Assembly (NCBI GenBank): GCA_037305845.1
Contig: CP147778.1
Span: 3,104,001-3,168,000, forward strand
Source: Candidatus Freyarchaeum deiterrae
Lineage (GTDB): Archaea; Asgardarchaeota; Jordiarchaeia; Jordiarchaeales; Jordiarchaeaceae
Reading direction: 5' to 3'
DNA length: 64,000 nt
Shown: one piece after another, positions 416-20,138 of the stretch
Layout: the number at the start of each line of letters is the position of its first letter
How positions within the stretch are numbered: the stretch's first letter is position 1
Made by a program: the position numbers and the translations under genes
Notes under the pieces: model-generated
What the model saw: the letters and a program-made list of their open reading frames with translations, nothing else
Database searches by the model: none
What the model was told of the DNA's origin: nothing

Positions 416-2302
416 GTGAAAGAATTCGCTATAAGGTTCGAACCAGACGGCAAAAAAATCGCAGCTGATAATGGGCTAAACATACTAGATTTAGCTAAAG
501 AAGGAGGTGTGGGAATCCGCTCTGAATGTGGCGGGAAAGGGAAATGTGGGAAATGCCGAATCAAAGTCGAGAATCAGCGTAACCTAAATGAAGTAACCGA
601 TACAGAGAGAGAACACCTGACACTAGAAGAAATTAATCAAGGGTATCGGTTAGCCTGCATGGCCTCGATCCGTGGGAATTTGGTGGTGTTTATTCCGAGT
701 GAGAGTCGATTGAGTGTGAGAAGAATACAGGTACATGGTATGGAACAACCTGTTAAACTAGAACCGAACGTTAAGAAAATTAATCTATTTTTGGAAAAGC
801 CCACAATTCAAAATCCCATAGCAGATGATCTAAACATTTTTACTAATCCGGAGAAGTTATCTAATCTCCAAGATTTGGAATTTGAATATGAGCTGCTGAG
901 AATAATTCCGGATGTTGTAAGGAAGGGGGATTGGAATGTTACAATTACCATTCTGGGTGATAGAAAAATTATTGATTTAGAGCCTTTCAATACGACTGCA
1001 CGAATTTTTGGATTCGCAATTGATATAGGCACTTCCAAGCTCGTTGGATATCAGGTAGATTTGAACAGTGGCGAAGTTGTTGGAGTTGGATCCATAGAAA
1101 ATCCCCAGATTGCTTATGGAGAAGACGTGCTTTCTCGAATATCCTATGCCGAAGAGGGATACGAGAACAAGCAGAGATTACAGAATCTGACAGCAGAGGG
1201 AATTAACAAAATAATTCAGATGGCTTGCGAAGAATCGGGAGTAGATCCAAAAGAAATTTACGAGTTGACCGTCGTGGGCAACACCGCCATGTTCAGCCTA
1301 TTTCTAGGCATCCAAACCAAGTATCTACACTTGGCACCCTATGTTCCGGGAGTGAAGTTCCCAGTCACCGTTGGAGCGAAAACACTAAACATAAATGTTA
1401 ACCCTAGAGCAAGTGTTTACGTTCTGCCTAATATTGCGGGCTACGTGGGCGCAGACGCGGTTGGCGACGTATTAGCGACCGGTATTTATGATCTGGATGA
1501 AATATGCTTGCTTGTGGATGTTGGAACCAATGGTGAAGTCTTCGTCGGCAATAAGGAGGACATTGTCAGTTGTTCCTGCGCCGCGGGACCCGCTTTCGAG
1601 GGAGTCCACATTCAGTACGGCATGAAAGCTGTAACCGGGGCAATTGAGAGAGTGCAAATAAAACCCAAAACCTTTGATGTTAAGTGCGAAACAATTGGAG
1701 GTTCAAAGCCAGTCGGTATATGCGGCTCAGGAATAATTGACATTGTAGCAGAAATGTTCAGGTGTGGAATTATTACCGAAAGAGGAAAATTCAACGACCT
1801 AGATACACCAAGAATAATTAGAGCCGAAGGAAGACCAGAATTTGTGGTAGCTTGGAAAGAAGAAACCGCCATTGGGAAAAACATTACAGTCTCTATGAAA
1901 GACGTGGAAGAAATCCAATTAGCAAAAGCCGCAATACACGCGGGCTGCGTTGTCCTAATGAAGAAGAAAGAATTGACCGACAACGAGATAGACAAGGTTT
2001 TCATAGCCGGGGCTTTTGGCAACTACATTAACCCCGAGAGCGCAAAATTCTTGGGACTCATTCCAGACATACCCACCGAAAAAATCACGTTTGCAGGAAA
2101 CACCGCCCTCGCGGGAGCCAAAATGGCCCTCGTTTCAAGGGAGGTTCGAAACATCGCACGAAGGTTGTCCAAGTGGATAAGATACGTGGAGCTAATGGCT
2201 GAGCCGGGCTTCAAAAGCGAATTCGTGAAATCAAACCTGATCCCCTACAAAAATCTGGAAGGGTATCCCTCAATAAAGAAATATTTGGAAGAAAACAGGT
2301 AA
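416..2302 (+). CDS. Reductive activator of corrinoid proteins (RACo/RamA-like; 2Fe-2S + ASKHA ATPase)
   Basis: N-terminal 2Fe-2S motif CGGKGKCGKC...RLAC; ASKHA motifs DIGTS, VDVGTNGE, CAAGPAFEG, GICGSG, IAGAFG; GGAGG SD before GTG. Confidence 0.93.
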   Translation: MKEFAIRFEPDGKKIAADNGLNILDLAKEGGVGIRSECGGKGKCGKCRIKVENQRNLNEVTDTEREHLTLEEINQGYRLACMASIRGNLVVFIPSESRLSVRRIQVHGMEQPVKLEPNVKKINLFLEKPTIQNPIADDLNIFTNPEKLSNLQDLEFEYELLRIIPDVVRKGDWNVTITILGDRKIIDLEPFNTTARIFGFAIDIGTSKLVGYQVDLNSGEVVGVGSIENPQIAYGEDVLSRISYAEEGYENKQRLQNLTAEGINKIIQMACEESGVDPKEIYELTVVGNTAMFSLFLGIQTKYLHLAPYVPGVKFPVTVGAKTLNINVNPRASVYVLPNIAGYVGADAVGDVLATGIYDLDEICLLVDVGTNGEVFVGNKEDIVSCSCAAGPAFEGVHIQYGMKAVTGAIERVQIKPKTFDVKCETIGGSKPVGICGSGIIDIVAEMFRCGIITERGKFNDLDTPRIIRAEGRPEFVVAWKEETAIGKNITVSMKDVEEIQLAKAAIHAGCVVLMKKKELTDNEIDKVFIAGAFGNYINPESAKFLGLIPDIPTEKITFAGNTALAGAKMALVSREVRNIARRLSKWIRYVELMAEPGFKSEFVKSNLIPYKNLEGYPSIKKYLEENR

Positions 2303-2338: not shown

Positions 2339-4048
2339 TTAAAGTTTTAAATCATAGACCTTTTTCAGAGCCTCTAACTGCTCTTTCCCGGTTTCTTTTT
2401 CGGGTTTGGGTTCACCTTCTTCTTTCTTGTGGCTCTTGGCTGGTAGTATTTCGTCTATTCGTAGCACGATTCTTGCAACATCTGTAGCTGAATTTAACGC
2501 ATGAACCTTTACCCTGAGCGTATCATAGATTCCTATTTTTTGCATATCATCGATCTGACCATCGATTGCGTTTACCCCCGCCCAGATCATTCCCTCACTG
2601 TGTTTTGCCTTTAGTTCGGTTAGAATTTGTAATGGGTCTAGTCCCGCGTTATCCGCTAGGGTTTGCGGTACTATCATGATTGCCTCTGCGTAAGCTAAAA
2701 TCGCCAACTGTTCTTTTCCCTCGAATGTCTGTGCGTATTGCCCTAAACACCTAGAGAGTTCTATTTCTGACGCTCCGCCGCCGGGTATAATTCGAGGGTC
2801 TTCTATGATGTTCCTAATGGTGTAGAGCGCGTCGTAAAGGCTTCTTTCCGCTTCTTCCAGAGCGTATTCGTTTCCTCCTCTTATAATGACGCTTGAAGCT
2901 CCCTGAGCTGGGCATCCTCTAACCATAATATAATTTTCTTTTTCGGAGGGTTTCCATTCTTCAATCACTTCTGCTTTTCCCAATTTGTCACTTGTTAAAT
3001 CTTCATTAAAAATGTCGGACACTACTGATGCCTCAGTCAACTTGGCAATCCTGTTAGTATCGGGTAGAAGAACACGCTTAACGGCCAGTATCTCCGCTCG
3101 TGCGAGATAATGTTCAACTATCTCATCTATTCCCTTATTCACAAGAGCAACATTTGCTCCAGACGAGATTAGTTTATTCACTATTTCTTTAACTATCTCT
3201 ACTCTCTTTTCTATGAAGGCTTCGTGCTCTTGAGGTGCTCTGACCTGTATCTTCATATTTTTTCCAGCAGCTTCCCACCAGCTCCCCGAAATTTCCTTCA
3301 ACTCCATACTTCTTATCAGGGCGACCTTGGCGTTTTCAACTCGCCTAGGCATATCAGGATGCACGATTTCTCTATCCTCAATAACATAACCGTCCACAAC
3401 GTAGGAGTCGCTGAGAGTACCCCCTCTCCTTTTAATCACTTTGATGTCTTCAATGTTCGTTCTCGGTTTTCCAGTAACTTCACTTACAACTCGTTCGGCT
3501 AATTCGAGAGCAATTTCGCTGAACTCATTCACAGTTTCAGGTGCACTTGTGATCTTCGTGTTTATGGCGGTCGAAGCCGACTTCCTTAAGATGTCCTTAT
3601 CACTGGGTTTTACAGGAACAGCGATTTCCTCTAATCTTTTAATTGCTCTTTTTAACGCTAAATCGTATCCTTTTAGAATGGTTGAAGGGTGAAGCCCTTG
3701 GTCCATTAGGGTTTCCGCCTTTCTGAGAAGCTCACCAGCTAAAATTACCGCGGTGGCTACTCCGTCGCCCACTATGGCATCCTGCGCCTTCGCCATCCCA
3801 ATCAAAATTCTAGCTACGGGGTGCTCTGCCTTAAGATTCTTAAGTATGGTGAATGAATCACCGGTTATCAGCACTTCTCCATCCTTTTTGAGGATTGCCT
3901 TATTCACACTATATGGTCCAATGGTTTTTCTTACAATCTGGCAAATGATACCGGCTACCATAATGTTACTCTTAAGAGACGCTAAATCTAACCCGTGTTC
4001 CAGTTTGTACACTGGCTTAAACCTTAGAGAGGTATCTTTTCCCAGCAA
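2339..4048 (-). CDS. Divergent group II chaperonin (thermosome/TCP-1 family) subunit
   Basis: TIGP, HPVARIL, QDAIVGDGVAT (canonical GDGTTT), IRGG...EAERSLYDA, PGGGASE, LADNAGLD, VLRIDEI. Confidence 0.92.
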   Translation of the reverse strand: MLGKDTSLRFKPVYKLEHGLDLASLKSNIMVAGIICQIVRKTIGPYSVNKAILKKDGEVLITGDSFTILKNLKAEHPVARILIGMAKAQDAIVGDGVATAVILAGELLRKAETLMDQGLHPSTILKGYDLALKRAIKRLEEIAVPVKPSDKDILRKSASTAINTKITSAPETVNEFSEIALELAERVVSEVTGKPRTNIEDIKVIKRRGGTLSDSYVVDGYVIEDREIVHPDMPRRVENAKVALIRSMELKEISGSWWEAAGKNMKIQVRAPQEHEAFIEKRVEIVKEIVNKLISSGANVALVNKGIDEIVEHYLARAEILAVKRVLLPDTNRIAKLTEASVVSDIFNEDLTSDKLGKAEVIEEWKPSEKENYIMVRGCPAQGASSVIIRGGNEYALEEAERSLYDALYTIRNIIEDPRIIPGGGASEIELSRCLGQYAQTFEGKEQLAILAYAEAIMIVPQTLADNAGLDPLQILTELKAKHSEGMIWAGVNAIDGQIDDMQKIGIYDTLRVKVHALNSATDVARIVLRIDEILPAKSHKKEEGEPKPEKETGKEQLEALKKVYDLKL

Positions 4049-4166
4049 AGGCTCTCACTTTCCTAATTTCTAACTAAATATAAGATATAGAGGACACTAA
4101 ACTTATGCTATTCTCTCGCCTGCTTCAGTGCCCACTGATTGATTGTAGACCTTGTTAAATGTTAGT

Positions 4167-4505
4167 TCATGTCCAACTCACAACTTTCTGGTATTTTTCC
4201 ATTGTGAGGTCGACCCATCCTCCGTAATCTACCAGCTGCACGCCCTTTATCATTCTTTCCTCAGGAATTCCTCTAGCTTCAGCGTCCGGTTTCAAGACGT
4301 ATACATTAACGCCTACGTCGAGTGCGTTTTTCAAAAGTTCCGCTACTAGTCCCTTCTCTTCCCTGATTGCACTAAGTACTGCATCCTGGATCAACATCAA
4401 ACCCACTTCTTCGTCCATTTTCCTCAAATTTAAGGACGCTTCAAACGCGTACGTGTCATCCTTTGTGAAATAAGGCGACTTGGATACTAGTATCAATGTT
4501 GCCAT
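4167..4505 (-). CDS. DsrH/TusB family sulfur-relay protein
   Basis: SKSP, LIQDAV, VYVL..DAEARG, VDYGGWVDL; third gene of a dsrE-F-H-like trio. Confidence 0.85.
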   Translation of the reverse strand: MATLILVSKSPYFTKDDTYAFEASLNLRKMDEEVGLMLIQDAVLSAIREEKGLVAELLKNALDVGVNVYVLKPDAEARGIPEERMIKGVQLVDYGGWVDLTMEKYQKVVSWT

Positions 4506-4521
4506 CTTTAATCATCTCCTT

Positions 4522-4881
4522 CTAGAAAGCCATTGCTATATCATTTTCAGCAATGATTTTAGCTACATCCCCCTGAACTATGCTTTCAATGGAAAGACCT
4601 GGGATTAAATCGTTCATGGTGAGACCTCTCTCATAAAGCGATTCTTCAACCACATAGAGTTTGGACTCAAAATTCTGTAACATTTTAAGAAACCGGTCAA
4701 TGGCTGAGTATCCAATAGCTTTTGGAAACTGATTCTTCATCGGACAGTAAACACCATCATCAATGAAAAGAAGAGTTACCGGAATTGTGAGAGCCCCAGC
4801 CGCGGCCGCTAATCGCACAGCTTCCACAACATGTATCCAGCCGAACGGAGGCTTCCTAATTATAAGCAGCAACTTCATCAC
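4522..4881 (-). CDS. DsrF/TusC family sulfur-relay protein
   Basis: IIRKPPFG...EAVRLA, LFIDDGVY, ESLYERGL. Confidence 0.85.
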   Translation of the reverse strand: MMKLLLIIRKPPFGWIHVVEAVRLAAAAGALTIPVTLLFIDDGVYCPMKNQFPKAIGYSAIDRFLKMLQNFESKLYVVEESLYERGLTMNDLIPGLSIESIVQGDVAKIIAENDIAMAF

Positions 4882-4898
4882 ATCATCTCCCTATCTAC

Positions 4899-5255
4899 CT
4901 ATATTGTAATAGCGAAAAATCGGTCCGCGTCCCTTATGATTTCTAGAACTGTGGTTGTGCTCTCCATGGTAGCGCCAGGGATGAAGTCTGTCTCGGGTTT
5001 TAAGCCACGAGCGGTGCAACAAGGGAAGCAGTTAACGAACTTCACTCCCTTCTCGCTCAGTTCCTTAAACCTGCCCACGGGGGAAGGCATATCCTCCACG
5101 ATCAAAAATTTTGCAGCATTATAAACGCCGTCTCCCATACCAATAACTGTTACCTCATGTCTCTTCTCAAGAGCCGCGTTTATGAACTCAATCGCGGTGT
5201 CCGAATTCTCAAACTGTAGAGGAGTAGTAAACAGTAAAATCGCTACTTTACCCAT
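4899..5255 (-). CDS. DsrE/TusD family sulfur-relay protein
   Basis: TTP..., GDGVYNA, NCFPCCTARG containing the persulfide-carrying Cys position; start placed at ATG 5255. Confidence 0.85.
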   Translation of the reverse strand: MGKVAILLFTTPLQFENSDTAIEFINAALEKRHEVTVIGMGDGVYNAAKFLIVEDMPSPVGRFKELSEKGVKFVNCFPCCTARGLKPETDFIPGATMESTTTVLEIIRDADRFFAITI

Positions 5256-5304
5256 AAAATCACTACGCAAACTTCTTAGACTAACATGGTCTGCTTATCT
5301 ATAC

Positions 5305-6225
5305 CTAGAATATTTTGTTTAAAGGATGTGAGGGCTCCTGCCTTACCCGATATTTTCTTCTGTTATAATATCCTACAAGACCGTTGACCATAGCACAGGC
5401 AGGGAAAACCGATTCCGCCTCCTCAATGGGACCGTATAAGGCGAAGTCAGCACCCATCATTGCCGTTACCAGCACTGAGCCGGATATGCACGACTTGTAC
5501 GAAACGGGTGGAAACTCTTTCTTAATCTTTTTCCAAGCGGTAATGGCGTTCGCGGGGCCGCATCCTGAAGGAAGCCCGAACTCATTTTTCACAGAGTATA
5601 TGGTCTGCGCTGCGAAGGATATACTAACCACATCGAGCACCGCGGTGTCCACGAGCATGTTTTGGATTCCCGCTTCCTGCGCCTTTTGGATTAATCCCTT
5701 CTCACCACCAGTACCCTTTAACAATTCTATTCTGCCTTCCGGCATCAAAGCCTTGGGACTGAACACGAGTAGCATGCTGGATTTTACACCGAGTTCTCGA
5801 AGAGTGTTAAGTTCACTCTCTTTGGAGTGCACATCTATCGAATTGTAGATAGCCCGCTCAGCTAATCCCGCTTCAACAGCGTACTTAATAGCCGCCAATC
5901 GAGCCTCTGGGAGAGTGCTGTCCACGAGAAAGGGAGCCTTTGTTAATTGAGCCACAAAATCAATTTGTTTTTCGAGAGCCTCAGCAGTATCTCCCACAAT
6001 ATCCAATATGCCGGGGTTCCCAGTTTTATCGGACATCTCATCCTGCTTGTTGATTAGCTCCTCCGCCTTTTTCTTATCGAATATTCCCTTTTGACGGTCA
6101 GAAACAATCTTGTGTTTATCATAAAAAATGCTTCCAATCAGTACTGTGGGATAAGCACCCGGTTGGCCACCGATTTTTACACCATTAATGTCCCAAACCT
6201 TTTGTTCCTTTTCAAAAGCAAACAC
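5305..6225 (-). CDS. mtrH: MtrH/MtgA family corrinoid:pterin (H4MPT/THF) methyltransferase
   Basis: FEKEQKV..I.GVKIGGQPG.YPTVLIGSIFY, IYNSI, VDTAVLD, GLPSGCG..NA, GADF.LYGPIE; GTG 6225 has a GAGGT SD; no other mtr genes nearby. Confidence 0.92.
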   Translation of the reverse strand: MFAFEKEQKVWDINGVKIGGQPGAYPTVLIGSIFYDKHKIVSDRQKGIFDKKKAEELINKQDEMSDKTGNPGILDIVGDTAEALEKQIDFVAQLTKAPFLVDSTLPEARLAAIKYAVEAGLAERAIYNSIDVHSKESELNTLRELGVKSSMLLVFSPKALMPEGRIELLKGTGGEKGLIQKAQEAGIQNMLVDTAVLDVVSISFAAQTIYSVKNEFGLPSGCGPANAITAWKKIKKEFPPVSYKSCISGSVLVTAMMGADFALYGPIEEAESVFPACAMVNGLVGYYNRRKYRVRQEPSHPLNKIF

Positions 6226-6589
6226 ATCGCATACCTCACTTTTCAAAATTCACAGTCGTGCACCAGTTTATCAGAGTAAGTTAATTGTTCTTCCATCCGA
6301 CCTCTAATCTCGTTTGTTAATCCACGTTTTTTGTGTTTGTGTGATTCTAAATCGTATAGAGTAGTATACCATGAACTTGTTGTTATTTTAGCTTATTAAT
6401 TTTTATTACGCTACTGCGAAAATCTCAACTACTGAATATGAGAACAGTGCAAAACTTCTAGGCAATCCATAAAATATAATGAAAGGGTCGACAAAAAATT
6501 AATCTGTATGGAAACTTAGTATGCCTCAACTGAAAATCTACAAATTTTTCACAAGCAGTAAGAAGAATTTTTATTTAAAGGGACTCGAA

Positions 6590-9500
6590 TTGTCTGGAGA
6601 CAACTATTCCTATAATTCTTCAGGGGACTTGTCTTCTCTTCGGGAGACTATCGCCGCAGTCAAAACCTTAGCGGATTTCATAAAGAGTTCCTTTGGTCCC
6701 ACTGGCATGAATAAACTTATTGTTGATGAAAAAGGAGACGTTACGATAACAAGGGACGGTTTTACTATTTTAGATAAAGTGGGAGGAGGTCATCCTGCGG
6801 TCAGGGTCCTTAAGGACGCCGCCGAGACACAAGACTTGGAGGTTGGGGATGGAACAAAGACAACGGTGATACTAGCCAGCGAGCTTTTGAGCAGGGCTGA
6901 ACAACTGCTCGATAAAGGAATTCATCCCACGACCCTAATACGAGGATACTCAAGAGCCTTTAAAGAAGTATTGAAAATTCTTGAAGAGATTGCCATTCCT
7001 ACTGATTCAACCAACAGGGAGATACTGAAAAAAGTAGCAGTCAATGCTATGACGGGTAAGCTTAACTTAGAGGAGTGCGAATTTCTTTCGCAAATGGTTG
7101 TGGATGCCGTCTTACACGTCTCAAAAAATATTGGTGAAAAGCGTTTCGTTGATGTTCAAAAAATCGTAATTGAAAAGAAACTGGGGGGCGTAGTTGCAGA
7201 CAGCGAGTTGGTTAAGGGCGTGTTATTAAGCAAAGAAGCCTCCCATAATGAAATGCCGAAAAGTGTTGAAAACGCAAGAATAGCTCTCCTTAAATGTCCT
7301 CTGGAAATTGAAAAAACCGAATTCGATACCAAAATTCTAATAGAGAATCCAGAGAGAATAAAAGATTTTTTGGAAGAAGAAGAATCAGTAATAAAACAAA
7401 TGGTTGGAAAACTATCAGAACTGGGTGTGAACGTTGTCTTCTCCGAAAAAGGAATCGACGACCTAGCCCAATATCTTTTGGCTAGTAGGGGAATTCTCGG
7501 TGCTGAGTGGGTGGGAAATGCTAACATCAAAAACGTGGCTTCAGCAACAGGCGGCAAACTCGTAGCGGATATTAACGACCTTAAATCCGACGATCTGGGA
7601 TACGCGGGTTTTGTCCGAGAAAAAGAATTCGGAGAAGAAAGAATAATACTCGTTGAACAGTGTGAAAACCCATTCACCGTGACCATTCTTCTGAGGGGAG
7701 GAGCCCAAAGCATTCTGGACGAGTTGGAAAGAGCAGTTCATGACGCAGTTTGTGCAGCAAAAGACGTGGTCGAGAACCCCCTGATACTAGTGGGAGGGGG
7801 AGCCTCAGAAACCGAAATCTCAAAAAGGATCAGAGCCGCTGCCCAAGGAAATGGAAAAGAGCAATTGGCGTACACGGCCTTCGCAGAAGCTCTGGAAGCG
7901 TTAACCTTTTTGCTCGCCAAAAATTTGGGTCTTGACGCGTTGAACAAGGTTGCTGAGCTGACAAGGAGACATAGTTCGGGAGAAATCTACGCCGGAATAG
8001 ATGCGATTGATGGGGAAATCAAAGATCTAATGAATCTTGGAATCTACGAACCTTTCCTCGTAAAAACCCAAGCCATGAAATCCGCTTACGAGGCAGCAAC
8101 AATGATTCTCAGAATAGACGATATATTTACAGCCGAAGAACTTGAAAAAGAATCGGAAACACTGGACTATATGCGTCCTCTAAAGGGGGTCAAAACGCGG
8201 GAAAAAGTTTTCGAAACCACCCTCAACAATATATCAGCTTTTAGTGTCATCGCCGACGCAGTAAAACCCTGCTTTGGTCCCCGAGGAAGAAGCAAACTGC
8301 TCATAGACAATATAGGAGGCCTAAAATATACCGGTGACGGGGCAACTATTCTGGGATTCATGTACATTAAGCACCCCGCAGCAAAAATGTTAGTCGACCT
8401 CACAGAAGCCCAGAGCAAATACATCGGTGATGGGACAAAAGCCAGCGTCATCCTAGCAGGCGAGTTGCTGAAGAATGCTGAGGAACTATTAAGCCAGAAA
8501 GTACACCCCACTGTGATTATAAACGGTTACAAAAAAGCTACACAAAAGGCTCTGGAACTTTTGAAGAATATGGCACTACCAATAAATCACGAGGATTCTG
8601 GAACTCTAAAAAAAGTCGCCCTAACAACTATAAGCGGGAAAATCACTGATGGAAAAGAGCTATTCGCTGAAATGGCTGTTAAAGCTATAAACAGTGTAGT
8701 AGAAGCAAAGAAAGTTCCCAATATTGATATTAGAAAAATCAAGATTTTGAAGGAACAGGGGAAAAGTCTTGGTGAAAGTGAACTCTTCGCGGGAGTTATT
8801 CTGGAAAGAGAGGTCATCAGTCCCAAGATGCCCAAAAGAGTTGATCAAGCCAGAATCGCATTACTTGATTGTTGGTTGAGGGTCTCCCAACAGAATTTTA
8901 GAAGAGATCTGGAGATTCGTATCCAAAGCTCCGATGAGTATAAAGTTCATTTAGACACTCTAAAAGAATTAGCAAGGGACATGGTAAAGAAAATAGAGAG
9001 TACGGGAGCCAATGTTGTCTTGTGTACAAAAGCGGTAGATGACTTAACAGCACATTTTCTCGCAGAATCTGGGATTTTAACTGTTGCTCAGCTGACAAGT
9101 ATAGATCTCAAAATAATATCTGAGGCAGCCGGTGGGAAAATCGTAACCGACCTAAATGATTTGAGAAGAGAGTATCTTGGAATGGCGGAAACTGTAGAGG
9201 AAAGAAAAATCGGTGGGAAGGAGCTTGTTTTCGTTAACTGTTCTGGATTAAGATGCGCCAGTGTTGTTATCAGGGGGGGCGCCGAGGACATATTGGGCGA
9301 AGCGGAGAGAGTATTCCGTAACGTGTTAAAAGTTTTAAAAGTTGTAATTATGGAAGGTAAAGTGGTCGCGGGGGGCGGCTCAGTGGAAGTAGAACTCGCC
9401 AAAGAGGTAAAAAGACACGCAAAGAACTTTTCTAAAAGAGAGCAACTAGCCGTGGAGAAATACGCAAAGGCCCTTGAATCTATACCCAAAACCTTGGCTG

Positions 9501-9766
9501 AAAACTCTGGATTGAATGCATTAAAAACTTTGGCCGAGCTCAAGGCTCTGCACGAAAACCCCCAAAATGTGTGGATAGGGATCAGCGAAAAGGGAAAACT
9601 AGAGAACATGAGGACTCTAAACGTTTTAGAACCTTTAAGTCTCAAAACACATCTAATCAAGTCTGCAAATGAGATAGCAGAAACCATTCTGAGGATAGAC
9701 GAGGTAATATTAGAAAAAGAAAAAGTGACGGCAGATAAATCTGAAAAGGCGTTAAACGGAAATTGA
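6590..9766 (+). CDS. Tandem-fused double group II chaperonin (two complete TCP-1 domains in one ORF)
   Basis: Domain 1: SSFGP, TRDG, GDGTKT, ERAVHDA, MILRIDD. Linker of about 15-20 aa. Domain 2 from ~8171: PCFGP, TGDG, GDGTKA, GGGSVE, TILRIDE. No stop between them; probable start TTG 6590 (ORF open from 6521). Confidence 0.92.
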   Translation: MSGDNYSYNSSGDLSSLRETIAAVKTLADFIKSSFGPTGMNKLIVDEKGDVTITRDGFTILDKVGGGHPAVRVLKDAAETQDLEVGDGTKTTVILASELLSRAEQLLDKGIHPTTLIRGYSRAFKEVLKILEEIAIPTDSTNREILKKVAVNAMTGKLNLEECEFLSQMVVDAVLHVSKNIGEKRFVDVQKIVIEKKLGGVVADSELVKGVLLSKEASHNEMPKSVENARIALLKCPLEIEKTEFDTKILIENPERIKDFLEEEESVIKQMVGKLSELGVNVVFSEKGIDDLAQYLLASRGILGAEWVGNANIKNVASATGGKLVADINDLKSDDLGYAGFVREKEFGEERIILVEQCENPFTVTILLRGGAQSILDELERAVHDAVCAAKDVVENPLILVGGGASETEISKRIRAAAQGNGKEQLAYTAFAEALEALTFLLAKNLGLDALNKVAELTRRHSSGEIYAGIDAIDGEIKDLMNLGIYEPFLVKTQAMKSAYEAATMILRIDDIFTAEELEKESETLDYMRPLKGVKTREKVFETTLNNISAFSVIADAVKPCFGPRGRSKLLIDNIGGLKYTGDGATILGFMYIKHPAAKMLVDLTEAQSKYIGDGTKASVILAGELLKNAEELLSQKVHPTVIINGYKKATQKALELLKNMALPINHEDSGTLKKVALTTISGKITDGKELFAEMAVKAINSVVEAKKVPNIDIRKIKILKEQGKSLGESELFAGVILEREVISPKMPKRVDQARIALLDCWLRVSQQNFRRDLEIRIQSSDEYKVHLDTLKELARDMVKKIESTGANVVLCTKAVDDLTAHFLAESGILTVAQLTSIDLKIISEAAGGKIVTDLNDLRREYLGMAETVEERKIGGKELVFVNCSGLRCASVVIRGGAEDILGEAERVFRNVLKVLKVVIMEGKVVAGGGSVEVELAKEVKRHAKNFSKREQLAVEKYAKALESIPKTLAENSGLNALKTLAELKALHENPQNVWIGISEKGKLENMRTLNVLEPLSLKTHLIKSANEIAETILRIDEVILEKEKVTADKSEKALNGN

Positions 9767-9864: not shown

Positions 9865-10512
9865 ATGTCGGAAAGCGAAATTTTAGAAAAGTTATCTCAA
9901 GCATTAACAAACGGTGACGACTTACTCGCTGCAGACCTTGCAAAGCAAGCACTTAAAAAAGGAATTTCCGCCATCGATATACTGAACAAGGGATGCACAC
10001 CGGGAATGCTCAAAGCCGGAGAAATGTACGCGTCCGGGCTCGGAGGGGCCTCACTCACCGACCTTCTAATGAGCGGCGAATCCATGCAGGCGGTACTCGC
10101 AGTGATCAGGCCCTACCTGAAAGCAGAAAAAGCTGAAGCAGCTGGCAGACTAGTTATCGGAATGATAGAGGGAGACCTGCACACCATAGGAAAATCCGTT
10201 GTTGTTTCAATGTTTGAATCTGCTGGCTGGGCAGTCACAGATTTAGGCGAAGATGTACCCGCAGAAAAATTCATCGAAGCCGCCAAAAGAGAAAAGGCAA
10301 ACATAATTGGCGCAGCATCCGCAATTTCCGGCTGTCTAGACAAGCTAAAAACATTGAAGGAAATGATTGATAAGGAGAATCTTTCCGTCAAATACCTGGT
10401 AGGCGGATGGGCAACAGGCCCCGAATTCGCCAAATCTATTGGTGCCTACTTTGCGAGAGACGCTTTAGCAGCAGTACAATTAGCCTCAGAACTAATAGAA
10501 GAGGCTGAATAA
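9865..10512 (+). CDS. Corrinoid (cobalamin-binding) methyl-carrier protein, MtaC/MttC-like
   Basis: N-terminal helical cap domain, then EGDLHTIGK (DxHxxG), DLGEDVP, LVGG. Confidence 0.93.
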   Translation: MSESEILEKLSQALTNGDDLLAADLAKQALKKGISAIDILNKGCTPGMLKAGEMYASGLGGASLTDLLMSGESMQAVLAVIRPYLKAEKAEAAGRLVIGMIEGDLHTIGKSVVVSMFESAGWAVTDLGEDVPAEKFIEAAKREKANIIGAASAISGCLDKLKTLKEMIDKENLSVKYLVGGWATGPEFAKSIGAYFARDALAAVQLASELIEEAE

Positions 10513-10533: not shown

Positions 10534-11910
10534 ATGCCCGAAGGTGAAGAATACTTATCTTGGTATAAGAAGCCCGAGCCATACACCACCGTCTCTGATA
10601 AGCCGACCGAAGCCGGTGGAAAGAAGGCGGCTCCTTGGTGCGACTACACCTACAGCGAATGGGAAATATACGAGAAACAGAAGATACCCGACTGGTATTG
10701 GAACTTCAAACCCCCAGAATGGTCTGAGGAAGAGCAGGTCATAATGGAGCGAATAATGCTCAAGCTACAGGAAAATATCGCCAAAGAAAAAATGACCCCA
10801 TTGGACAGATATTGGGCTACTGCCTATGGTGTAGAAAGAGACCGTTGCCCTGTGATGGGAGGCAACTACGCACTTGCAACCAACTCCCCGAGACTATTAG
10901 ACTCCTATGGTGTAATTTTGAAGGGAGTGGACTTTCACAGGTATCCTAAACTACACATACTGGGAACCACTATGGCTGTGGCGAGGTTCGCTACAGACAT
11001 CATATTCACCCACAAAATCACTTACTCTGAAGCCGAGTGGGGTGGACATGTTTACTTGAAGGAAACCTCTGCTCCTGTGTGTAGAAGCTCCGGAGCAATG
11101 GAAACAGGCTTCAAGGTTCCATTTCTACCGTACCGAACTGCGCCTTTCCTCTCACACAAAATACCAGAAGCAGACTACGGAGCTTACGCCCACCAGTTAT
11201 GGGAAATCAGAACCATCAAGGAGTATCTCAGAAAAGCAGGACTCTGGGGAGTACTGCCCCTCATGACAAACACCTGCGTAGGTCCCATAGGTACAGCTGG
11301 AGCAGCCATCGGTCCCACTCTGGGTATTCGAGAGAGAGCCATAATGTATAAGCGAAATCCTGAATGGTACCACATGTGTATGAGAGAGGCTCTCAGATTC
11401 TGCATAAGACACCACAGAGCAGTAAGGGACGCTGGCACGGACATAATGTTCTTCTGTGACGGTCTTAACACCATGGGAACGGATATGACCGCAGACCTAA
11501 TACCATACCACGTGGATTTGTGCAAGGAAGTCCACTGGCCCCCAGGAGGAACATGTATAACCGGTGGAGACTTCCGTCGCCATGTGGACATCATACTTCA
11601 GGCACACGGAAAATACGCATACTTGGTGGGCAGCGACCACGTGTGGCCGATACAGGATGCCCTTAAAACAGCTCTCCAATATGACAAGATGTGGTTCGAC
11701 TTCCCGGACTGGGATAAGATTAAGGCGGCTAAACTTGAGGATATCGCTGCCTATGAGAAAGAGAGATTCAAGATTGCCTGTGAGGATCCGAAGAGCAAGT
11801 ACTGGAACCCCGGACCGGCTGACTACTGGATACCCATGGAAAATTATCAAGCTTGGGCGGATGCATCTAAAAAGTACGGCTCCTACCCTAATGGCTGGGA
11901 ACAACCGTAA
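10534..11910 (+). CDS. Highly divergent UroD/MtaA-fold methyltransferase with Trp-rich N-terminal extension
   Basis: MTPLDRY...ERDRCPV resembles the MT.xER...DRxPV start of the family; SEAEWGG resembles EAEAxG; GPIGTA resembles GPfT.A; lies directly after the corrinoid gene. Confidence 0.65.
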   Translation: MPEGEEYLSWYKKPEPYTTVSDKPTEAGGKKAAPWCDYTYSEWEIYEKQKIPDWYWNFKPPEWSEEEQVIMERIMLKLQENIAKEKMTPLDRYWATAYGVERDRCPVMGGNYALATNSPRLLDSYGVILKGVDFHRYPKLHILGTTMAVARFATDIIFTHKITYSEAEWGGHVYLKETSAPVCRSSGAMETGFKVPFLPYRTAPFLSHKIPEADYGAYAHQLWEIRTIKEYLRKAGLWGVLPLMTNTCVGPIGTAGAAIGPTLGIRERAIMYKRNPEWYHMCMREALRFCIRHHRAVRDAGTDIMFFCDGLNTMGTDMTADLIPYHVDLCKEVHWPPGGTCITGGDFRRHVDIILQAHGKYAYLVGSDHVWPIQDALKTALQYDKMWFDFPDWDKIKAAKLEDIAAYEKERFKIACEDPKSKYWNPGPADYWIPMENYQAWADASKKYGSYPNGWEQP

Positions 11911-11943: not shown

Positions 11944-12339
11944 ATGGTGGCTACTGCAGAAATGACTGATGCGTGTTTTCAACACAGTGCTAAAAGAATC
12001 AAAGCCATGGCCGAGGAAGGATATGGTGAAGGATGGGAACCCTTCAAAATGTGTTTCTGGATGAGAGACCTGAACAGGGGATACCTGTTTACATTTAAAA
12101 AGGACGGCGTACTTGAAAACACGGAAATAGTGACCAAGGAACCAACAGGCATAAATGCTGTGGTCATAATGTCCAGCGATGATTGGGTCGGCCAGCACAC
12201 GAAAGAAGTGGATTTATCTGAGAAATACTTTTCTGGAGAAATGCAAGTCAAGGGCGATGTCGCTGTTCTACAACAGTACAAAACCTTTGAGTCCTTCGAA
12301 CCATATTACCCGCCTGGTCACCCCAAATACAAAAAATAA
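11944..12339 (+). CDS. SCP2 (sterol carrier protein 2)-like domain protein
   Basis: C-terminal MSSDDW...DLSEKYFSGEMQVKGD matches the SCP2 D...afxxGklkvxGD signature; GAGGTGA SD. Confidence 0.7.
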   Translation: MVATAEMTDACFQHSAKRIKAMAEEGYGEGWEPFKMCFWMRDLNRGYLFTFKKDGVLENTEIVTKEPTGINAVVIMSSDDWVGQHTKEVDLSEKYFSGEMQVKGDVAVLQQYKTFESFEPYYPPGHPKYKK

Positions 12340-12493
12340 TCAAGCAAACATCTACCAGAGAATTCCACCAAACTCCTTTCAACATTTTTTTCTTCTAAAA
12401 ATAAGATAAATAGTGATAATGAAAATTATGCGAAAGCCAAATTTATTTTATGGATTAGAATCTTTAAAAATTTAAATAGAGGTGTGATTCTGC

Positions 12494-12673
12494 ATGGCTA
12501 AAGTAGCAAAATGTGCAAAATGTAAATCTGATAAAATCCAGAAAAAAGAAGTTTCGGTTCCCTCAATACTTGAGGTGGGAAGAAATTTTCCGGCTGATGC
12601 ATATGTCTGTTTAAATTGTGGATATGCGGAATTTTATTTTAGGGAACTCGATTACACAACCCGAACACACTAA
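12494..12673 (+). CDS. Small zinc-ribbon protein, 59 aa (below the ORF-track cutoff)
   Basis: Translated by hand: MAKVAKCAKC...AYVCLNCGYAEFY...; two CxxC pairs; GAGGTG SD. Confidence 0.8.
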   Translation: MAKVAKCAKCKSDKIQKKEVSVPSILEVGRNFPADAYVCLNCGYAEFYFRELDYTTRTH

Positions 12674-12742
12674 AAGAGTAGAGACAGCGGAAAATAATAC
12701 ATAAAAGGTTTACAAAATAAAATAAACAGTTCAGGGATTAGA

Positions 12743-13267
12743 ATGGCCAAAGTCGCAAAAATAGGAGAAATGTTCTTTCCACTAGAACTTTACTATTCAC
12801 ACAATAAGAGAGGTCATACCTGGATAAAAAAAATGGATGATGGAAATCTACAGATAGGCTTGGACTACTACGGCGCTATACCCATGATGATTACAACAAT
12901 ATCTCATCCCCTGCCTTACGTTATTGAACTTCCTCCAGCAGGAACTCAACTCAAACAGGATCAGCCCTACGGTCTTCTAGAAACCGTAAAGTATATTGGA
13001 CCATTCTATGCACCACTAACCGGAACCATTGTTAAAATTAATCCGGATAGAGTATCCTCACCACCCCATAATATTAGAAATTCATACGTAGACGGTTGGT
13101 TCCTTATTCTCAAACCCGCAAATTACGAAAAGGAAATAAAAAATCTTCTAACCGGCGAAGAGGCAGTAAAGTGGATTATTAAAGATATAATCGAGTACTC
13201 GGAAGCGGAAGACGAAGAACTCACAAAACAAGCAAAGCAAGGCTACACCATTGAGGAAATGAAGTAA
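12743..13267 (+). CDS. Glycine cleavage H-protein-like lipoyl carrier
   Basis: YY...HTWI...IGLDYY, LPPAG..L....PYGLLETVK (lipoylation Lys) YIGP.YAPLTGTI..IN, Y.DGW. Confidence 0.85.
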   Translation: MAKVAKIGEMFFPLELYYSHNKRGHTWIKKMDDGNLQIGLDYYGAIPMMITTISHPLPYVIELPPAGTQLKQDQPYGLLETVKYIGPFYAPLTGTIVKINPDRVSSPPHNIRNSYVDGWFLILKPANYEKEIKNLLTGEEAVKWIIKDIIEYSEAEDEELTKQAKQGYTIEEMK

Positions 13268-17844: not shown

Positions 17845-19920
17845 TCATATAACTTGTGGTTTGAATTCTCCAAATACTTCCCTTAACACTTCGCATATTT
17901 CTCCAAGTGTGGAATAGGCTTTAACTGTCTCTATTAGAGTTGGCATAAGATTATGTTTTTCATCTTCGGCTTCTTTTCGCAGTTTTTCAAGAAGGCTTTT
18001 AACAAGCTTGTTATCTCGTTTAGCTTTGATTTTTTGTAGGTTTGAAATCGCCTCTTTCTCAATCTGGGGGTCAATTTTTTGTAGGGTGAGCTTTGGTTCT
18101 TCTTCGGTTTGAAACTTGTTCAGACCTACGATGATTTTCTCGTTTCTTTCCACTTCCTTCTGGAACTTGTAGGCCATTGCAGCTATTTCCTTCTGGACGT
18201 ATCCCTTCTCTATGGCTTTCACCATTCCTCCCATCTCATCGATATCTTTGATGTACTGGGTAGCTGCGTCTTCCAGTTTGTCTGTTAGGGTTTCTGCGAA
18301 GTACGATCCGCCAAGAGGGTCTATGGTGTTGGTAACCCCGTTCTCGTAGGCTAGTACCTGTTGGGTTCTTAGCGCTATTGTTACCGATTCTTCGGTTGGG
18401 AGGGCTAGGGCTTCGTCTCTGCTGTTGGTGTGCAATGATTGGGTTCCTCCCAGTACCGCCGCCAATGCTTGGATCGCTACCCTTATGATGTTGTTCTCGG
18501 GTTGCTGGGCGGTTAGGGTTGATCCGGCGGTTTGAGTGTGGAATCTCAGTTGCATGGAGTTTTCGTCCTTGGCCTTGAATCGATTCCTCATTATCTTGGC
18601 CCAGAGTCTCCTCGCAGCTCTGAATTTTGCGACCTCTTCAAAGAAGTCGTTGTGAGAACTGAAAAAGAAGGACAGTCTTCCCGCGAACTGGTCTACATCT
18701 AATCCTCTCTTCAGAACCGCGTTCACGTAAGATATGCCGTTAGCTAGAGTGAATGCTACCTCCTGTATGGCGTTTGAACCAGCTTCTCTTATGTGGTATC
18801 CTGAGATGGATATGGGATTCCATCGGGGCATATTTTTTGAGCAATACTCTATCACATCAGAAACTAGCCGCATGGAGGGCTCTGGGGGGAAAATGTATGT
18901 TCCTCGGGCGACGTACTCTTTCAGAATATCGTTCTGCACGGTGCCTGAGAGTTTTGAGACATCCACTCCCTGCTTCTGGGCAACCGCAATATACATGGCT
19001 AGTATGATTGCAGTGGGAGAGTTAATAGTCATAGATGTGCTGACCTTATCTAACGGTATTCCCTCAAACAGAGTTTCCATATCCTTCAGAGTGTCTATGA
19101 TTACACCCACTCTACCAACTTCTCCCCGGGCCAAAGAGTGGTCGGAATCATAGCCCATCTGTGTGGGGAGGTCGAAAGCTACGCTGAGACCAGTCTGTCC
19201 CTGCTCAATGAGATATTTGAATCTACGGTTGGTTTCCTTCGCGGAGGCGAATCCAGCATACTGCCGCATGGTCCATAAGCGTCCCCTATACATGGTGGGG
19301 TAAACGCCTCTGGTGAAAGGATATTCTCCGGGTAATCCCAGCACTTCAGAATAGCTTTTTCTAACTTGGTCAAGTGGAGTGTAGATTCTCTTCTCTTCTA
19401 TTTCCGACGCTGAGGAGTACTTTTTTTCACGTTCCGGATTCTTTTCTAAAAACTTTTTGAGCTTTCCTTCCTCCCATTTCTTAAGCTCTTGCTCCAAGCT
19501 TTCCTTATTATCTTCATTTTCTTTTTCGTCCAATTTACTAGCACTCTCGCTATCCAATTTAAAAATGATGCCAAAAGACGGCTTTCCCTCGGAGTCCACC
19601 GATACCTGACCGTAAGTCGGTTTAACTCTCATTCCTATCTCTACTTTTTCCTTTTCGGATATCTGCCCAAAGGCTCTAATCCCGTTATCAAATTCTACTA
19701 TTCCAAAAACATATGGAGGTTCACCTTTTAGGGTTTCAGGGAGAGCGTAAAGCTTTGTAAAGGTTATGACCGTGCCTCTGTCTAAGGGTTCAGGGTAAAT
19801 ATTCTCAAATTCTGAGGACCTACATTTAATACATCTCACCCTTCCTGGGAACTGAATTTTTCCGCATCTTTTACATTTGATCCGCAGTAATTCTGCCATT
19901 ATTTTCTCCTTTTCCTCCAT
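17845..19920 (-). CDS. Methylmalonyl-CoA mutase large subunit with an N-terminal DUF35 (Zn-ribbon/OB-fold) fusion
   Basis: About aa 1-125: [32 protein letters not shown]. Then [51 protein letters not shown]. Confidence 0.92.
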
Positions 19921-20138
19921 TCGAGAATCACCCTTCAATTTTATGCGTGCACTAATCCACTTTTGGTGGACAATTCAAATATATAAATCATTTCAATGGT
20001 TTTAAATCAAGCCCAATTTTTAATTTTAATCTTTTTGGTGAGAAATATCTAGAAATGCACAAAGACTTGAAATAGTGTACTTTTTTCCTATTAGAACCCT
20101 TTAAAGATACTTCAAATAATAGTCTATTGGTCATAGGA

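What the first reader, a model, noticed from the sequence alone, without database searches (positions are those of the whole stretch)
6590..9766. Naturally concatenated two-subunit group II chaperonin
One ORF encodes two complete, mutually divergent thermosome domains joined by a short charged linker (ILRIDDIFTAEELEKESETLDYMRP, about 8105-8180) with no stop or frameshift. Chaperonin N- and C-termini lie close together at the equatorial domain, so the fusion is structurally plausible and would fix neighbour order in the ring. With the single subunit at 2339-4048 there are three distinct domains. Possible rings are (AB)4 octamers or (AB+C)3 nonamers: a genetically ordered hetero-oligomer like eukaryotic CCT, and notable if the host is Asgard.
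Basis: partly seen in the sequence, partly recalled or inferred. Interest (0 to 1): 0.88.

Follow-up and report, generated by a model that had tools for sequence, protein, structure and literature searches.

The report
Naturally fused two-subunit archaeal chaperonin
An Asgard archaeon makes two different subunits of a ring-shaped protein-folding machine as one continuous chain; it is a real, conserved fusion of an extra alpha/beta gene pair that sits with a third subunit beside B12 methyl-transfer genes, probably a specialised folding ring rather than a forerunner of our own CCT chaperonin.

Summary
Confirmed. Window 6590-9766 encodes two full Cpn60_TCP1 domains (A, B; 36% identical) with no stop. 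The host is the complete Freyarchaeia genome (3,576,204 bp). The fusion recurs in 11 other Freyarchaeia/Jordarchaeia clusters (65-88% identity) and, at about 36%, in an Atabeyarchaeia-like lineage with the same gene order; both halves and the junction are under purifying selection. Unfused A-then-B gene pairs occur in a Bathyarchaeia-labelled lineage, again beside subunit C. A is alpha-type and B beta-type; trees reject self-duplication, so an accessory alpha-beta operon lost its stop. The genome holds seven chaperonin domains, not three; canonical alpha/beta lie elsewhere. B lacks the catalytic Asp in 14/14 fused copies and keeps it in 3/3 unfused. A/B/C-type genes sit in corrinoid-methyltransferase clusters in all six lineages examined, canonical thermosomes in about 2 of 42 loci. 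All domains score far higher on thermosome than CCT profiles. Best reading: a pathway-linked accessory chaperonin with fixed A-B adjacency and uneven ATPase sites, convergent on CCT. Ring size, (AB)4 or (AB+C)3, and clients are untested. The scan had noted this only on this same DNA.

The parts
6590..9766 (+). Fused two-domain group II chaperonin AB, 1058 aa (TTG start; an in-frame ATG at 6521 is less likely)
6668..8134 (+). Domain A, alpha-type. P-loop GDGTKT (aa 86-91); catalytic Asp385 kept (10/12 Freyarchaeia copies, 0/2 Atabeya-type); own N-terminal S1 strand degenerate or absent; conserved Trp307 in the apical domain
8129..8167 (+). 13-residue charged linker between A's last strand (RIDDIF) and B's S1-equivalent (YMRPL); homologous to the C-tail of unfused A; low pLDDT; dN/dS 0.09-0.12
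8168..9718 (+). Domain B, beta-type. Full chaperonin fold (pLDDT 89, TM 0.94 and rmsd 1.5 A to 1Q3S); P-loop GDGTKA; catalytic Asp replaced (Asn911 here; absent in 14/14 fused copies); distinctive basic/aromatic lid segment
2339..4048 (-). Stand-alone subunit C, co-inherited with A and B; eroded P-loop GDGVAT, catalytic Asp kept, charged tail
5305..6246 (-). MtrH-family methyltransferase, divergent from AB, first gene of the MtrH-DsrEFH-C run
4167..5270 (-). DsrE, DsrF, DsrH-like genes, syntenic in Freyarchaeia and the Atabeya-type loci
9865..10512 (+). Corrinoid (B12-binding) protein directly downstream of AB
10534..11910 (+). 458-aa URO-D/MtaA-like putative methyltransferase (no Pfam hit itself; its 68% ortholog has a weak URO-D hit and lies between unfused A-B and C)
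416..2302 (+). RACo, reductive activator of corrinoid proteins, convergent with C
11944..13267 (+). SCP2-like and GcvH-like genes; the GcvH-like gene is also syntenic in the Atabeya-type loci

Best explanation
AB is a genuine, selected single-chain dimer of an accessory alpha-type (A) and beta-type (B) thermosome subunit, formed when an A-B operon lost its stop codon and roughly 10-25 residues of tail. With subunit C it most likely builds a second, specialised group II chaperonin, separate from the housekeeping alpha/beta thermosome, that helps fold or assemble the neighbouring corrinoid-dependent methyl-transfer proteins, much as MmoG serves soluble methane monooxygenase. The 13-residue tether forces A next to B in the ring and fixes them 1:1; B has since lost its hydrolytic Asp and C has an eroded P-loop, so A is the main ATP-hydrolysing position. 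Shown: fusion, conservation, origin from an A-B pair, A/B/C co-inheritance, motif loss, gene-context enrichment. Inferred: ring formation, C as partner, clients, ATPase gradient. Within this reading I put a ring containing C (such as (AB+C)3) at about 55%, (AB)4 alone at 30%, and mixing with canonical subunits at 15%.
For: Fused in 11 other clusters and in a second, about 36%-identical lineage with the same gene order, whose neighbours match Atabeyarchaeia (thiolase 90% to LC30, MtrH 84% to Atabeya-1). Unfused A-then-B pairs with 21-45 bp gaps (L081, L085, L181), with a Bathyarchaeia-labelled member in the cluster. A, B and C each form a supported group with their unfused counterparts; A lies on the alpha side and B on the beta side; A+B as one clade rejected, p-AU 0.017 and 2.4e-5. 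dN/dS 0.15-0.23 for both halves. Catalytic Asp 0/14 in fused B vs 3/3 unfused. Corrinoid/methyltransferase/RACo genes near A/B/C-type genes in six lineages vs 2 of 42 canonical loci with at least 8 kb of flank. The one same-genus genome lacking AB also lacks C and the MtrH ortholog. Engineered covalent group II chaperonins work (PMC5413064).
Against: No single neighbour is shared by all three AB+C lineages (MtrH-DsrEFH in the Asgard ones, the URO-D-like protein in the unfused ones), so no client is identified. G005 keeps the corrinoid, URO-D-like and GcvH genes without AB or C. C-type genes also occur without A/B nearby. In the Atabeya-type copies all three domains lack the catalytic Asp, which fits a holdase or scaffold better than a cycling foldase. 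An alpha/beta pair fits an alternating octamer without C. No expression, proteomic or structural data; the full-length model failed. Lineages are few and the context control is not phylogenetically independent.
Confidence: 0.55

Rival explanations
1. AB, C and the other divergent subunits are incorporated with the canonical alpha/beta subunits into one general, CCT-like multi-subunit ring (up to seven different positions); the gene context is incidental.
For: Seven domains in the genome, close to CCT's eight; graded loss of ATPase motifs and of the Gly-Met tail; one prefoldin-alpha gene and no second cochaperone found.
Against: A, B and C move as a unit independent of T3/T4; G005 has T3/T4 without AB/C, and both complete Atabeya genomes have only two chaperonin genes; A does not derive from the host alpha (p-AU 1.3e-4); strong methyltransferase-context enrichment.
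Confidence: 0.15
2. AB (with or without C) is an ATP-independent holdase or structural scaffold/compartment for the methyl-transfer and sulfur-relay proteins rather than a folding engine.
For: Catalytic Asp lost in all fused B and in A, B and C of the Atabeya-type copies; second catalytic Asp lost in B of five Jordarchaeaceae-type copies; still under purifying selection.
Against: Freyarchaeia A keeps both Asps, the GDG core and the sensor Lys in most copies; CCT with single ATPase-dead subunits still folds clients (PMC5413064).
Confidence: 0.2
3. The complex is an evolutionary intermediate on the line to eukaryotic CCT.
For: Asgard host; paralog expansion with unequal ATP sites.
Against: All domains score 490-600 bits on thermosome profiles and at most about 400 on any CCT profile, lower than the canonical subunits score on CCT (up to 541), and none reaches a CCT cut-off; found in one genus among 400 Asgard genomes; closest unfused relatives are Bathyarchaeia-labelled.
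Confidence: 0.04
4. Artefact or neutral read-through: mis-assembly or a recent lost stop codon with no functional meaning.
For: Reads could not be inspected; tandem alpha-beta genes with short spacers are common.
Against: At least 13 other independently assembled fused sequences at 36-88% identity; the junction is shorter than simple read-through would give and conserved at dN/dS about 0.1.
Confidence: 0.03

Closest known systems
Archaeal thermosome, alternating (alpha-beta)4 ring of Thermoplasma acidophilum (PDB 1A6D) and Thermococcus KS-1 chaperonin (1Q3S)
   Same: Same fold (TM 0.93-0.94); one alpha-type and one beta-type subunit; passes the NF041082/NF041083 cut-offs
   Different: The two subunits are one chain; P-loop GDGTK; B lacks the catalytic Asp; no Gly-Met tails; accessory to a canonical pair; below the TIGR02339 cut-off
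Sulfolobales TF55/rosettasome (nine-membered rings; alpha, beta, gamma subunits)
   Same: Three co-occurring paralogs, two on the alpha side and one on the beta side of the tree; precedent for nine-membered rings (PMC11596651; three-subunit composition from own knowledge)
   Different: There the subunits are separate housekeeping heat-shock proteins; ring size here is untested
Eukaryotic CCT/TRiC
   Same: Paralog-specific apical surfaces, unequal ATP sites, fixed neighbour order (here enforced covalently)
   Different: No sequence affinity to any CCT subunit; CCT order is set by interfaces and its subunits are separate chains; B here has lost the catalytic Asp outright
MmoG / GroEL-like chaperonins of soluble di-iron monooxygenase operons
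   Same: Divergent chaperonin encoded in an enzyme gene cluster beside a housekeeping system (PMC7994243)
   Different: MmoG is group I and single-domain with a tested role; here group II, three domains, client only inferred
Engineered covalent or circularly permuted chaperonins (Thermococcus KS-1 covalent mutants; circular permutant, probably P0021)
   Same: C-terminus joined to an N-terminus by a short linker and still functional (PMC5413064; P0021 has a 7-residue link)
   Different: Laboratory constructs of one subunit type; this is natural and joins two different paralogs
Methanosarcina acetivorans five-subunit thermosome set
   Same: Expanded, divergent group II paralogs
   Different: Five was the highest archaeal count in a 2019 review (PMC6420498); this genome has six genes and seven domains, one gene fused

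Membership tests
Group II chaperonin (thermosome) | Full Cpn60_TCP1 domain with equatorial, intermediate and apical parts and built-in lid | tested here: met
   Both halves cover 488-489/490 profile positions; the B model matches 1Q3S at TM 0.94
Group II chaperonin (thermosome) | Scores above thermosome HMM cut-offs | tested here: inconclusive
   A 582/577 and B 533/537 bits pass NF041082 (450) and NF041083 (400) but fail TIGR02339 (671)
Group II chaperonin (thermosome) | Intact ATPase site (GDGTT(T/S) plus two catalytic Asp) | tested here: not met
   A GDGTKT with both Asp; B GDGTKA with the catalytic Asp lost in 14/14 fused copies; C GDGVAT
Group II chaperonin (thermosome) | Double ring of 8 or 9 subunits with ATP-driven folding | not testable with these tools
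   Full-length model failed, pLDDT 33; no biochemistry
CCT/TRiC | Orthology to one of CCT1-8 | tested here: not met
   Best CCT scores 403 (A), 381 (B), 368 (C) bits, below cut-offs and below the canonical subunits' scores; no tree with CCT sequences was built
CCT/TRiC | Eight different subunits in a fixed order | not testable with these tools
   Seven domains in the genome, inherited in separate sets
CCT/TRiC | Uneven ATPase capacity around the ring | tested here: inconclusive
   Motif-level gradient A > C > B; activity not measured
Pathway-dedicated chaperonin (MmoG-like role) | Encoded with the client gene cluster, in addition to a housekeeping chaperonin | tested here: met
   Six of six lineages vs 2 of 42 canonical loci; canonical T1/T2 elsewhere
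Pathway-dedicated chaperonin (MmoG-like role) | Required for maturation of the neighbouring enzyme | not testable with these tools
   No experimental data

The most novel reading that the evidence does not exclude
AB and C form a three-position, genetically ordered (AB+C)3 chaperonin with one active and two impaired ATPase sites, dedicated to maturing B12 methyl-transfer enzymes: an independent invention of CCT-style subunit order and power-stroke asymmetry inside Asgard archaea, with a living unfused, ATPase-intact precursor for direct before/after comparison.
Probability: 0.3. Interest if true: 0.88.

Novelty: new variant of a known kind. Interest (0 to 1): 0.72.

Why it matters
I found no description of a natural tandem group II chaperonin in the searchable literature (the library is incomplete), and among 1.84 billion representatives only two natural double-domain clusters appeared in the top 150 hits. 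How a chaperonin goes from interchangeable subunits to fixed positions with unequal ATP sites is the open question behind CCT. This system offers a natural series that can be expressed: unfused A, B, C with intact sites; fused AB with a dead B; fused AB with all three sites eroded. It also suggests that archaea carry operon-linked group II chaperonins for corrinoid methyltransferases, which could help heterologous expression of those enzymes.

Tried and rejected
Full-length AlphaFold2 of AB: alignment too shallow, pLDDT 33, so the A-B geometry is unmodelled; linker reach is an estimate from known ring geometry, not a measurement. Apparent 1110-1126-aa 'open frames' in G012 and G021 are two adjacent genes with a stop, not fusions. 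P0021, P0034, P0078, P0084 and P0109 are not double chaperonins. A search with B alone found no close stand-alone ortholog (best 46-48%); unfused B surfaced only through profile and context searches. No B ortholog among 401 sampled genomes of the Bathyarchaeia class, so the host of the unfused form rests on two NCBI labels in the same 90% clusters. An MtrH-centred scan of species genomes found the trio only in the four Freyarchaeia genomes: MtrH does not generally need a chaperonin neighbour. FastTree joined the three long Atabeya-type branches; the mixture model and group profiles separated them. Horizontal transfer from Bathyarchaeia is suggested but not shown: A+C with all Asgard alpha subunits was not rejected (p-AU 0.087). 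GC and GC3 of A, B and C match the genome. Rfam found nothing; the promoter scan is bacterial-type and uninformative. Complex prediction was not run: AB exceeds the size limit and any two thermosome subunits would tend to pass by likeness to solved rings. CCT sequences could not be brought into the trees.

Full report
Observation. The window holds one open frame from 6590 (TTG; an in-frame ATG lies at 6521) to 9766 with two near-complete Cpn60_TCP1 domains, A at 6668-8134 and B at 8249-9718. They are 36-37% identical. The genome is one contig of 3,576,204 bp at 40.7% GC, the length given for the complete Freyarchaeia (Asgard) genome in PMC11291895, whose topology was validated by long reads. 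That paper's main text does not mention chaperonins.

Reality of the fusion. Eleven other clusters of 1053-1076-aa double chaperonins exist at 65-88% identity; those with names are labelled Freyarchaeota/Jordarchaeia, one 'Lokiarchaeia'. Four of five same-genus genomes have an open frame over the junction. A profile search of 1.84 billion representatives gave one more natural double protein, P0013, about 36% identical. Its locus has the same order, C, DsrH/F/E, MtrH, then AB and a GcvH-like gene, and a second strain confirms it. Neighbouring genes match Atabeyarchaeia, the sister group of Freyarchaeia. dN/dS is 0.15-0.23 for each half and 0.09-0.12 across the junction. Reads could not be checked.

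Origin. Three metagenomic loci carry separate A and B genes in the same order, 21-45 bp apart, and two of them have C on the other side of an ortholog of the window's 458-aa URO-D-like gene. Members of their clusters are labelled Bathyarchaeia. Under LG+C20, A, B and C each group with their unfused and Atabeya-type counterparts (93-99 SH-aLRT). A falls on the alpha side and B on the beta side of the thermosome tree. A+B as one clade is rejected (p-AU 0.017; fused halves only 2.4e-5), and so is A with the host's own alpha (1.3e-4). Canonical alpha-beta tandems are common in Asgard and Bathyarchaeia. The simplest history is a duplicated alpha-beta operon that specialised and then fused. The junction joins the remnant of A's tail to B's first strand and is shorter than plain read-through would give. 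The direction of any transfer is not settled. Whether the two Asgard lineages share one fusion event is likely from the gene order and weak tree support (81-82) but unproven, as their linkers do not align.

Anatomy. B folds as a normal group II subunit (pLDDT 89; TM 0.94 to Thermococcus 1Q3S) and the linker is low-confidence. Thirteen residues separate A's last strand from B's S1-equivalent, about ten in the Atabeya type. From general knowledge of ring geometry this can span neighbouring subunits but little more; that is inference. Engineered covalent group II chaperonins function (PMC5413064). Fused A has lost its own S1 strand, which unfused A keeps. The catalytic Asp of B is missing in all 14 fused copies and present in all 3 unfused ones. 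A keeps it in 10 of 12 Freyarchaeia-type copies. C keeps it but has GDGVAT for GDGTTT. In the Atabeya type all three domains lack it. Each class has its own conserved apical signature and none has a Gly-Met tail.

Genome and context. The genome has seven chaperonin domains: canonical alpha and beta near 2.03 and 2.01 Mb, plus A, B, C, T3 (0.87 Mb) and T4 (1.98 Mb). A 2019 review gives five as the archaeal maximum (PMC6420498). AB and C sit among RACo, DsrEFH, MtrH, a corrinoid protein, a URO-D-like protein, SCP2 and GcvH-like genes. More distant B-type and C-type genes also lie beside corrinoid or methyltransferase genes, six lineages in all. Of 42 canonical thermosome loci with at least 8 kb of flank, two have such a gene, and one of those was fetched through MtrH (44 rows minus the two fusions misfiled by summed score). 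T3 shows the same link here and in Jordarchaeales family f2 but not in four congeners. G005 (96% complete) lacks AB, C and the MtrH ortholog together while keeping the corrinoid and URO-D-like genes; an unassembled contig cannot be excluded. Among 400 Asgard genomes the fusion and the URO-D-like marker were found only in the host genus.

Relation to CCT. A, B and C score 490-580 bits on thermosome profiles and at most 403 on any CCT profile. The canonical subunits score higher on CCT than they do, and none reaches a CCT cut-off. The CCT resemblance (fixed order, unequal ATP sites; PMC5413064) is therefore functional and convergent at best. No tree with CCT sequences was made.

Mechanism. Most likely (0.55) an accessory chaperonin for the methyl-transfer cluster, by analogy with MmoG (PMC7994243), in which the tether fixes A beside B and A supplies most ATP hydrolysis. 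C accompanies A and B in all three lineages, which favours a ring that includes C, such as (AB+C)3; nine-membered rings are known in Sulfolobales (PMC11596651). An alpha/beta pair equally fits an alternating (AB)4. Rivals are an ATP-independent holdase or scaffold (0.2), a general mixed ring with the canonical subunits (0.15), a CCT precursor (0.04) and an artefact (0.03). The weak point is the client: no neighbour gene is common to all three lineages.

Verdict. A real and apparently undescribed architecture: a new variant of group II chaperonins, not a new class and not a CCT ancestor. Earlier scan notes on this same stretch proposed the island and the ATPase asymmetry; I saw them after reaching that reading, and they are not independent evidence. 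Interest 0.72.

Noticed in passing
G000:C1 873,4xx-875,164 (L031:10429-12165): Divergent chaperonin T3 beside a corrinoid protein, MttB and a second RACo; orthologs in Jordarchaeales family f2 follow MtrH directly and face corrinoid-MttB-RACo genes (L028, L047, L193). A second chaperonin lineage tied to methyl-transfer clusters; four congeners lack the link.
   Followed up: partly
G000:C1 1,976,119-1,977,735 (L032:10120-11730): Chaperonin T4 with GDGGKI and no catalytic Asp, conserved at 75-80% across the genus in a housekeeping context (CysRS, acyl-CoA synthetase, SHMT); a candidate pseudo-ATPase subunit.
   Followed up: partly
L049:8417-10114 (G012), L050:2352-4070 (G023): Another Asgard family has a separate divergent thermosome among corrinoid, MtaB-like and RACo-like genes.
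   Followed up: partly
P0078 (863 aa, Logan): Thermosome with what looks like an intein, starting with Pro and ending His-Asn, inserted inside the GDG|TT P-loop.
   Followed up: no
P0021 (UniParc UPI0001FC8766): Circularly permuted crenarchaeal-type thermosome with a Gly-Ser linker and no contig on record; almost certainly an engineered construct.
   Followed up: partly
window 17845-19938 (-): A zinc-ribbon/OB (ChsH2-like) domain is fused to methylmalonyl-CoA mutase in one frame; in L053 and L191 these are two genes (124 and 561 aa).
   Followed up: no
window 4048-4167: Relatives carry a 138-141-aa gene between DsrH and C (L036-L038, L052, L053) that is absent here.
   Followed up: no
window 12743-13267 (+): GcvH-like protein keeps a Lys at the apparent lipoyl position and is syntenic with AB in both Asgard lineages; L183 has GcvH and a lipoate ligase beside a C-type chaperonin.
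   Followed up: partly
L051:5026-6249: A TnpB/Cas12f-like gene is inserted between MtrH and AB in one strain and absent from the sister strain L182.
   Followed up: no
L052:19398-21233, L053:17948-19772: The 458-aa plus SCP2-sized gene pair appears duplicated downstream of the cluster in two relatives (judged from gene lengths).
   Followed up: no
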